Shown here: in pieces, positions 985-1,460 of the stretch
Layout of the letters: every line of letters begins with the position of its first letter
Position numbering within the stretch: position 1 is the stretch's first letter
From: the human T2T-CHM13v2.0 reference genome, Homo sapiens
DNA: 64,000 bases
NCBI RefSeq assembly: GCF_009914755.1
Contig: NC_060933.1
Reading direction: 5' to 3' (one strand)
Notes under the pieces: model-generated
Database searches by the model: none
Seen by the model: only the letters and a program-made list of their open reading frames with translations
What the model was told of the DNA's origin: nothing
Translations under genes and position numbers: made by a program

Positions 985-1460
985 CGATTTTACAAAGAAG
1001 GAAATTAAAGCCCAAAGACGGGGCAGGGGACCGGCCACCACCAGGAGGGTGATGGGCTCCCTGCCTCCCTCACAGTTTTGGCCGGGTGCAGTGGCTCACA
1101 CCTGTAATCCCAGCACTTTGGGAGGCCGAGGCAGGTGGATCACTTGAGGTCAGGAGTTCAAGACCAGCCTGGTCAACATGGAGAAACCCCATCTCTACTA
1201 AAAATACAAAAATTAGCCAGGCATGGTGGTGCATGCCTATAATCTCAGCTACTCAGAAGGCTGAGCGGGAGAATCACTTGAACCCGGAAGGTGGAGGTTG
1301 CAGTGAGCCAAGATTGTGCCACTGCACTCTATCCTGGGTGACAGAGTGAGACTTTGTCTCAAAAGGAGAAGAAAAAAAAAAAAAAGGGCCCAAAGACGCA
1401 TAATGACTTCCTTAAGGTTACAGCATGAAAACCAGACTGGAGGTCAGAACTCAACCCCCA
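985..1460 (-). mobile_element. MIR fragment interrupted by an Alu insertion
   Basis: TTTACAAAGAAGGAAATTAAAGCCCAAAGACG | CATAATGACTTCCTTAAGGTTACAGC rejoins as a MIR core. Confidence 0.65.
1080..1384 (+). mobile_element. AluS, full length, with a non-Alu 5' leader inside the TSD
   Basis: GGCCGGGTGCAGTGG head, poly(A); TSD 1007-1020/1385-1398. Confidence 0.95.

What the first reader, a model, noticed from the sequence alone, without database searches (positions are those of the whole stretch)
1007..1398. Alu inserted together with a 59-nt non-Alu hairpin leader ending in ACAGTTTT
Seen: the TSD is not adjacent to the Alu head. AAAGCCCAAAGACG (1007-1020, at a TT/AAAG L1-endonuclease-type site) recurs after the tail (1385-1398, 11 bp perfect). 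Removing the insert restores a continuous MIR core, so 1021-1079 lies inside the insertion. The leader folds: GGCAGGGG/TCCCTGCC outer stem, CCACCACC/GGTGATGG inner stem, then ACA+GTTTT. Known: Pol III starts at the Alu's first base, so 5' extensions are atypical, whereas small-RNA/retroelement chimeras (U6-L1, U3-L1) form by template switching or ligation. Inference: this is either a 5'-transduced source-locus flank or a captured structured small RNA 3' end (H/ACA-like ACA box or Pol III U-tract). I did not find the leader elsewhere in the window.
Basis: partly seen in the sequence, partly recalled or inferred. Interest (0 to 1): 0.7.

Follow-up and report, generated by a model that had tools for sequence, protein, structure and literature searches.

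The report
Alu copy with a 59-base leader
An old, complete Alu repeat was pasted into the genome together with 59 extra bases of unknown origin in front of it, most likely because the copying enzyme jumped onto a second RNA; this is a rare but already known kind of accident.

Summary
The sequence facts hold. An 11-base repeat, GCCCAAAGACG, lies at 1010-1020 and 1388-1398. It encloses a 59-nt non-Alu leader (1021-1079), a full-length Alu (1080-1360) and an A-tail (1361-1385).

A profile built from 59 copies of the surrounding old interspersed repeat matches 988-1020 and 1387-1422. Twelve profile positions are matched twice, and the leader lies outside the repeat. Leader and Alu therefore entered in one L1-type insertion.

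The hairpin is no more stable than shuffled sequence (z -0.67). No Rfam family comes near its threshold. The leader has no other copy in the T2T genome, in 264 kb around the site or in an rDNA unit, and it is not Alu-like on either strand.

The leader fits a source Alu's upstream flank poorly. It has no A-rich stretch, whereas 61 of 63 neighbouring Alus do, and it ends in TTTT, which 0 of 63 do.

Best reading (about 0.5): the reverse transcriptase reached the first base of the Alu RNA and jumped to the 3' end of a second, U-ended RNA. The donor is unidentified. This is a new member of a known, rare kind, of modest interest.

The parts
988..1020 (+). Left part of the older interspersed repeat (MIR-like core) that was the target
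   Evidence: Profile positions 1-33 of the 59-copy profile match here.
1007..1020 (+). 5' copy of the target-site duplication. It is exact over 1010-1020 and is preceded by TT, giving a TT/AAAG L1-endonuclease-type site.
   Evidence: Chance estimate: 10 of 200,000 shuffles.
1021..1079 (+). 59-nt non-Alu leader, 68% G+C, donor unknown
   Evidence: Lies outside the target repeat. Not Alu-like. Unique in the genome. No Rfam family. Fold z -0.67.
1057..1075 (+). Pyrimidine-rich run (15 of 17 bases) followed by AG inside the leader. It resembles a 3' splice site; this was noted but not tested.
   Evidence: count. The splice-site reading is an inference only.
1076..1079 (+). TTTT directly against the first base of the Alu, and the only TT in the leader
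   Evidence: 0.043% of composition-preserving shuffles of the leader end in TTTT. 0 of 63 other Alus have TTTT here.
1080..1360 (+). Full-length Alu, old S-type by recall. It shows 25 differences in 284 columns from a local 10-copy majority sequence.
   Evidence: (two SRP-like arms).
1361..1385 (+). A-rich tail of the insertion
1385..1398 (+). 3' copy of the target-site duplication, exact over 1388-1398
1387..1422 (+). Right part of the older repeat. Profile positions 22-57 match here, so positions 22-33 are present twice in the locus.

Best explanation
This is one L1-driven, target-primed insertion into an old MIR-like repeat.

Proposed steps:
1. The L1 endonuclease nicked at TT/AAAG.
2. The reverse transcriptase copied a complete Alu RNA from its A-tail to its first base.
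3. Instead of finishing there, it jumped end-to-end onto the 3' end of a second RNA and copied that RNA's last 59 nt. This RNA either ended ...ACAGUUUU, or ended ...ACAG with the four T's coming from A's added without a template to the cDNA.
4. The cDNA was then joined to the upstream target end, which produced the 12-15-nt duplication.

The second RNA was probably an unconserved U-ended transcript, for example the 3' trailer of a Pol III primary transcript (possibly of another Alu). It was not a conserved small-RNA gene.

Shown: single duplication, exact boundaries, a full-length Alu, a unique non-Alu leader, and TTTT at the junction. Inferred: the template jump, the orientation of the donor, and its nature. 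The element has no demonstrable present function.
For: - One duplication encloses leader, Alu and tail, and the target repeat is continuous once they are removed.
- There is no A-run between leader and Alu, so there are not two tails and not two events.
- The Alu is complete from base 1. That is the condition for an end-to-end jump.
- TTTT sits exactly at the junction of a leader that otherwise has 6 T in 55 nt and no TT. 0.043% of shuffles end this way.
- The leader lacks what a genuine Alu upstream flank nearly always has. 61 of 63 local Alus have a 5-nt window with at least 3 A within 25 nt of the head, and 0 of 63 have TTTT at the head. By comparison, 78% of shuffled leaders lack such a window.
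- Purified ORF2p adds untemplated bases beyond the template's 5' end and makes 'copy of template 1 + copy of template 2' products (PMC10830420, passages).
- Small-RNA/Alu chimeras flanked by one duplication have been reported but are rare, e.g. U6atac/Alu with a 14-nt duplication (PMC4476161, passages).
- Among 54 full-length Alus in 264 kb, this is the only one with a non-Alu exact repeat of 11 nt or more whose 5' copy lies far (59 nt) from the head while the 3' copy abuts the tail.
Against: - No donor was found: only the locus itself by BLAST and by pattern with up to 3 mismatches. Neither the second RNA nor its orientation is demonstrated.
- The TTTT and the missing A-rich stretch were noticed after seeing the sequence. 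The 63 comparison Alus come from one AT-rich region (42-47% G+C), whereas a source could lie in G+C-rich DNA.
- The known chimeras mostly have a full-length, identifiable small RNA as the 5' part and a 5'-truncated 3' part. Here the 5' part is unidentified and the 3' part is complete.
- U6/Alu chimeras could not be reproduced experimentally (PMC4476161). In the passages read from a study of 226 recovered de novo Alu inserts, no 5'-extended insert is described (PMC3415434).
- No other primate genome could be consulted.
Confidence: 0.5

Rival explanations
1. 5' transduction, or a read-through transcript. The Alu was copied from a longer RNA that started upstream of a source Alu (for example a Pol II transcript with an embedded Alu, primed on the Alu's A-tail). 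The cDNA ended 59 nt upstream of the Alu head, so the leader is the source locus's flank.
For: The leader is contiguous with Alu base 1 inside one duplication. Embedded Alus are plentiful in Pol II transcripts (general knowledge). At about 9% or more divergence of the Alu, a neutral donor would now be roughly 80-85% identical. That is at the edge of what the genome search detects, so a missing donor does not exclude this.
Against: - A source Alu carries its own duplication directly upstream, and that duplication normally starts A-rich. 61 of 63 local Alus show this within 25 nt, whereas the whole leader has no 5-nt window with 3 A.
- TTTT abuts the head in 0 of 63.
- No second copy of the leader was found.
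- A screen of 118,489 full-length AluY for transduction confirmed none. That screen addressed 3' flanks only (bioRxiv 10.1101/2024.04.29.591526, part 1 of the text and passages).
Confidence: 0.2
2. Filler at the 5' junction that is not copied from an RNA 3' end. During completion of the insertion, a patch of DNA or an internal stretch of some RNA was copied in by microhomology-driven repair, and the TTTT is coincidental or untemplated.
For: Extra nucleotides at 5' junctions of L1-type insertions are known and are attributed to untemplated addition (PMC10830420). Templated patches from distant loci at break repair are cited in PMC4666360. No donor was found.
Against: 59 nt is long for untemplated addition. 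No template exists within 100 kb on either side (best match 13 nt) or at 82% identity or more elsewhere. The T-run at the exact junction would be a coincidence of about 0.04%.
Confidence: 0.12
3. The leader is the 3' half of a conserved, structured small RNA gene product, such as an H/ACA snoRNA or a known Pol III RNA (U6, 7SK, Y, vault, 5S or tRNA).
For: An ACA triplet lies near the end, a T4 at the end, and a predicted hairpin of -26.8 kcal/mol.
Against: - The fold is no better than shuffles (z -0.67).
- The best plus-strand Rfam scores are 18.3 bits or less against gathering scores of 70-100. No snoRNA or Pol III family appears on the plus strand apart from a 10.3-bit partial match.
- ACA lies 5 nt from the end, and 6 nt separate the stem from it.
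- A conserved gene should be about 90% identical to this copy and should have been found.
- There is no match to an rDNA unit.
Confidence: 0.05
4. Two separate events or a chance repeat. Either the 59 nt were there before, or they arrived later at the Alu's 5' edge, and the 11-nt repeat is coincidental.
For: No other primate genome was available to show the empty or intermediate site.
Against: - The repeat is expected by chance about 5 in 100,000 times.
- Both copies align to the same 12 positions of the target-repeat profile, and the leader aligns to none.
- No alternative duplication abuts the Alu head.
- There is no A-run on the leader's side of the Alu.
Confidence: 0.03

Closest known systems
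Chimeric retrocopies made by L1 template switching (U6/L1, U3/L1, U6/Alu, U6atac/Alu; Buzdin 2002-2003, Garcia-Perez 2007, Doucet 2015)
   Same: Two unrelated sequences lie head-to-tail inside one target-site duplication. There is one A-tail at the 3' end only and an L1-endonuclease-type site. The 5' part ends in a T-run, as U6 does. A U6atac/Alu example with a 14-nt duplication is described in PMC4476161.
   Different: The 5' part here is not an identifiable RNA and may be only a 3' fragment. The 3' part is a complete Alu rather than a 5'-truncated L1. Buzdin 2003 itself could not be read; it is known here only through citing papers.
5' transduction by L1 and SVA
   Same: Extra non-element sequence lies between the 5' duplication copy and the element's first base.
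   Different: No source locus was found. The leader lacks the source element's own A-rich duplication. Alu is made by Pol III from its first base, and no Alu transduction was confirmed in the one systematic screen (3' only, AluY only).
Alu/L1 chimeric insertions (Law and Burns 2026, PMC13174262)
   Same: A full-length, sense-oriented Alu is joined to another retro-copied sequence within one duplication. The proposed mechanisms are template switching or RNA ligation.
   Different: In those chimeras the Alu is the 5' part and L1 is the 3' part that carries the tail. Here the Alu is the 3', tail-bearing part.
End-to-end template jumping and untemplated addition by purified ORF2p (PMC10830420)
   Same: It predicts exactly 'copy of template 1 followed by copy of template 2 from its 3' end', with a few extra bases possible at the joint.
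   Different: That is an in vitro activity. It has not been shown for this locus or for Alu RNA in cells.

Membership tests
L1-mediated (TPRT) Alu insertion | Target-site duplication flanking the whole insert | tested here: met
   11 nt exact and 12 of 14. The same 12 profile positions of the target repeat are matched twice.
L1-mediated (TPRT) Alu insertion | Endonuclease-type site (TT/AAAA-like) at the start of the duplication, and an A-tail at the 3' end | tested here: met
   TT at 1005-1006 is followed by AAAG. The tail is at 1361-1385.
Template-switch chimeric retrocopy | Two unrelated parts inside one duplication, with no tail between them | tested here: met
   The leader is not Alu-like and is not part of the target repeat. 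There is no A-run at 1070-1079.
Template-switch chimeric retrocopy | The 5' part is a copy of an identifiable cellular RNA in the same orientation | tested here: inconclusive
   There is no Rfam family, no genomic donor and no rDNA match. The junction TTTT suggests sense orientation but does not prove it.
5' transduction | A source locus with the same sequence directly upstream of the element | tested here: inconclusive
   Only the locus itself was found. The control shows detection down to about 82% identity for 59-60 nt, and the expected donor identity is about 80-85% (inference).
5' transduction | The transduced flank ends with the source element's own duplication (A-rich start within about 25 nt of the head) | tested here: not met
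   The leader has no 5-nt window with 3 A. 61 of 63 local Alus have one.
H/ACA snoRNA | Hairpin-hinge-hairpin with ACA 3 nt from the 3' end, and a match to a family model | tested here: not met
   ACA is 5 nt from the leader's end. There is no plus-strand H/ACA match above 10.3 bits. Fold z is -0.67.
Pol III transcript | 3' end at a run of four or more T | tested here: met
   TTTT at 1076-1079 is the only TT in the leader.
Pol III transcript | Recognisable gene family or internal promoter boxes | tested here: not met
   No tRNA, 5S, 7SK, U6, Y, vault, RNase P or MRP match at E up to 10. Promoter boxes were not scored separately.
MIR (target repeat) | Match to the family consensus | not testable with these tools
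   No repeat library is held. A de novo profile of 59 copies (68 hits in 264 kb) stands in for it. The name MIR is from recall.

The most novel reading that the evidence does not exclude
The leader may be a retro-copied fossil of the 3' end, or the whole, of a roughly 55-59-nt U-ended small RNA that no longer has a recognisable gene in the human genome. One candidate is a short Pol III transcript that starts with G and ends in U4. Another is an excised, hairpin-forming intron end (a pyrimidine tract plus CAG) that had been oligo-uridylated. If so, Alu insertions with offset duplications would record the 3' ends of RNAs that were near the L1 reverse transcriptase in the germ line tens of millions of years ago.
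Probability: 0.1. Interest if true: 0.5.

Novelty: new member of a known kind. Interest (0 to 1): 0.28.

Why it matters
Chimeras with an Alu as the tail-bearing 3' part are rare, and their formation has not been reproduced in culture (PMC4476161). Alu transduction has not been confirmed in the one systematic screen.

This is a cleanly bounded example. The Alu is complete to base 1 and the added piece ends in TTTT. That fits the end-to-end template jumping now shown for purified ORF2p, and it suggests a survey that could be run genome-wide.

As a single old locus with an unidentified donor and no sign of function, it is an anecdote rather than a discovery.

Tried and rejected
I then stopped trying to raise sensitivity, so donors below about 82% identity remain unsearched.
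- **Buzdin 2003.** Not held.
- **Target-repeat copies within the window alone.** blastn and nhmmer gave only marginal hits (best E 0.098 and 7.2). 200 kb more sequence was needed. One window copy near 50048-50103 (minus strand) aligns across the junction without a gap there.
- **Inverted or rearranged Alu piece (twin priming).** Rejected: 830 of 1000 (sense) and 218 of 1000 (antisense) shuffles score at least as well.
- **Local templated filler.** Rejected for +/-100 kb.
- **rDNA (ETS, ITS or 28S) origin.** Rejected: 34 of 40 shuffles score at least as well against one 47-kb unit.
- **Known RNA families.** Rejected.
- **Hairpin as evidence of a structured RNA.** Rejected.
- **Literature on de novo Alu inserts (PMC3415434).** Passages only. 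They describe 8 of 226 atypical inserts, six of which are recombinants with genomic Alus. No 5'-extended insert is mentioned in those passages, and the supplements were not read.

Full report
**What is in the sequence**

- GCCCAAAGACG lies at 1010-1020 and again at 1388-1398.
- With three more bases, 1007-1020 and 1385-1398 agree at 12 of 14 positions.
- The 5' copy follows TT (1005-1006) and begins AAAG. This is the usual L1-endonuclease type of site.
- The Alu begins with its first base at 1080. Its head is the same as that of the other Alus listed.
- Its two arms match the SRP RNA model at 1081-1197 and 1216-1359.
- Its body ends at 1360 and an A-rich tail runs 1361-1385.
- The 59 nt at 1021-1079 therefore lie between the 5' duplication copy and the Alu head. 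They end ACAGTTTT.

**Is the duplication real, and is the leader foreign to the site?**

The 11-mer that follows the tail appeared in 10 of 200,000 shuffles of the 100 nt upstream of the Alu head.

- Within the window alone, a script-made empty site (921-1020 joined to 1399-1520) found only marginal relatives. One of them, near 50048-50103 on the minus strand, aligns across the junction with no gap there.
- I then fetched 100 kb on each side and ran iterative nhmmer. Hits at E 1 or less rose through 3, 19, 58, 67 and 68 over five rounds. The three first-round hits each span the junction.
- The resulting 58-position profile, built from 59 copies, matches the real locus in two pieces: 988-1020 (profile 1-33) and 1387-1422 (profile 22-57).
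- The same profile matches the empty site in one piece, profile 1-56, E 6.5e-7.

Twelve profile positions are thus present twice, and the leader belongs to neither piece. The search was seeded with the empty site, but the profile is made of other copies. I call the repeat MIR from recall only. The leader also differs in composition: 68% G+C against 42% in the flanks.

In a crude survey of 54 full-length Alus in the 264 kb:
- 19 have an exact repeat of 9 nt or more ending within 3 nt of the head.
- 27 have no exact repeat of 9 nt or more.
- 8 have their best repeat further from the head.

Among those 8, only this locus combines a non-Alu repeat of 11 nt or more with a 3' copy abutting the tail.

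Conclusion with high confidence (about 0.9): leader, Alu and tail entered in one insertion.

**What the leader is not**

- *Structured RNA.* The predicted hairpin (-26.8 kcal/mol) is no better than dinucleotide shuffles (-24.6 +/- 3.3, z -0.67; 54 of 200 fold as well).
- *A known RNA family.* Rfam at permissive thresholds gives nothing useful, whether over 601 bases or over the 76 bases around the leader. The best scores are 18.3 bits or less against gathering scores of 39-100, they are split over both strands, and most are miRNA models.
- *H/ACA.* ACA lies 5 nt, not 3, from the leader's end.
- *Alu.* Local alignment to the adjacent Alu is matched or beaten by 830 of 1000 (sense) and 218 of 1000 (antisense) shuffles. 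An inverted or rearranged Alu piece is therefore rejected.
- *A local template.* There is no match longer than 13 nt in the window or in the 264 kb.
- *rDNA.* There is no match to one full rDNA unit: 34 of 40 shuffles score at least as well.
- *A second genomic copy.* In the whole T2T genome, BLAST finds only the locus itself, and so does a pattern search with up to 3 mismatches.

As a sensitivity control, the window's U8-like gene found 17 other loci at 76-91% identity, including 59-60-nt matches at 82%.

The Alu differs from a local 10-copy majority sequence at 25 of 284 columns. This is a lower bound on its age-related divergence, because that majority sequence has itself lost CpGs. I infer two things from this:
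- A conserved donor gene would still be about 90% identical and should have been found.
- A neutrally evolving donor would be about 80-85% identical and could be missed.

**Flank of a source Alu, or the 3' end of another RNA?**

A source Alu carries its own target duplication directly upstream of its head, and such duplications normally begin A-rich. Of 63 other Alus with intact heads in the 264 kb:
- 61 have a 5-nt window with at least 3 A within 25 nt upstream of the head.
- None has TTTT against the head.

The leader has no such A-rich window anywhere, and it ends in TTTT. By composition alone, 78% of shuffled leaders lack an A-rich window, and 0.043% end in TTTT. The first 55 nt contain 6 T and no TT.

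These features argue against an ordinary 5' flank (transduction or read-through). They fit the 3' end of a U-ended RNA, or untemplated A's added to the cDNA at the end of the Alu template.

Two caveats apply. Both features were noticed after the fact. The comparison Alus also come from one AT-rich region.

**Mechanism proposed**

Purified ORF2p adds bases beyond the 5' end of its template. It also continues on a second template, giving 'copy of template 1 + copy of template 2' (PMC10830420, passages).

Applied here, the enzyme copied the Alu RNA to base 1, jumped to the 3' end of a second RNA, and copied 59 nt (or 55 nt plus added bases). The cDNA was then joined to the target.

RNA ligation before retrotransposition is the other mechanism discussed for such chimeras (PMC13174262, passages). 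A complete Alu, which by general knowledge has a 5'-triphosphate end, seems a less likely ligation partner. That last point is inference.

The donor may be the 3' trailer of a Pol III primary transcript, which runs to the first T-run. The 15-of-17 pyrimidine tract plus AG just before the TTTT also resembles an intron end. I did not test that.

**Comparison with what is known**

- Small-RNA/Alu chimeras inside one duplication have been described but are rare. Two U6atac/Alu cases were reported, one with a 14-nt duplication. Earlier U6/Alu chimeras were not reproduced in culture (PMC4476161, passages).
- A catalogue of L1 chimeras includes 452 Alu/L1 insertions, but there the Alu is the 5' part (PMC13174262, passages).
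- A screen of 118,489 full-length AluY confirmed no Alu transduction. It looked at 3' flanks only (bioRxiv 10.1101/2024.04.29.591526, first part and passages).
- Two polymorphic AluS/J copies with adjoining non-Alu sequence that maps elsewhere were ascribed to non-TPRT processes (PMC4666360, passages).
- I found no paper describing this locus, but my three searches were not aimed at it. Buzdin 2003 could not be read.

**Verdict**

The best reading is a template-jump chimera with an unidentified U-ended RNA, at about 0.5. It is a new member of a known, rare kind, with no evidence of function and modest interest.

What remains open is the donor.

Noticed in passing
window 41360-41493: The annotated U8-like snoRNA copy has 17 other matches in the genome at 76-91% identity and none identical. 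The closest is on C11 at 91%, and a C17 locus is at 90%. It therefore looks like one diverged member of a dispersed U8 copy family. It was used here only as a sensitivity control.
   Followed up: partly
L015:4984 and L015:5302 (G000:C9:38040001-38050000): Two Alu heads lie 318 nt apart, and each is flanked by nearly the same 15-17-nt repeat. This amounts to three copies of one duplication around two tandem Alus. It suggests either unequal exchange between the duplications or a repeated insertion at one site.
   Followed up: no
window 50048-50103 (minus strand) and 52433-52495 (minus strand): These are weak, diverged copies of the same old repeat that was the target at 988-1422. The family has 68 hits at E 1 or less in the 264 kb.
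   Followed up: partly
L010:1258 (G000:C9:38254001-38264000): An Alu-like hit is preceded by a short tandem motif repeated at least twice. It is one of only two comparison loci without an A-rich upstream window, and it is possibly not a true Alu head.
   Followed up: no
G000:C13:5780910-7612892: 5.8S rRNA matches recur every 46,970 bases. This gives the rDNA unit length on this chromosome arm. 40 candidates were scored out of many more.
   Followed up: no
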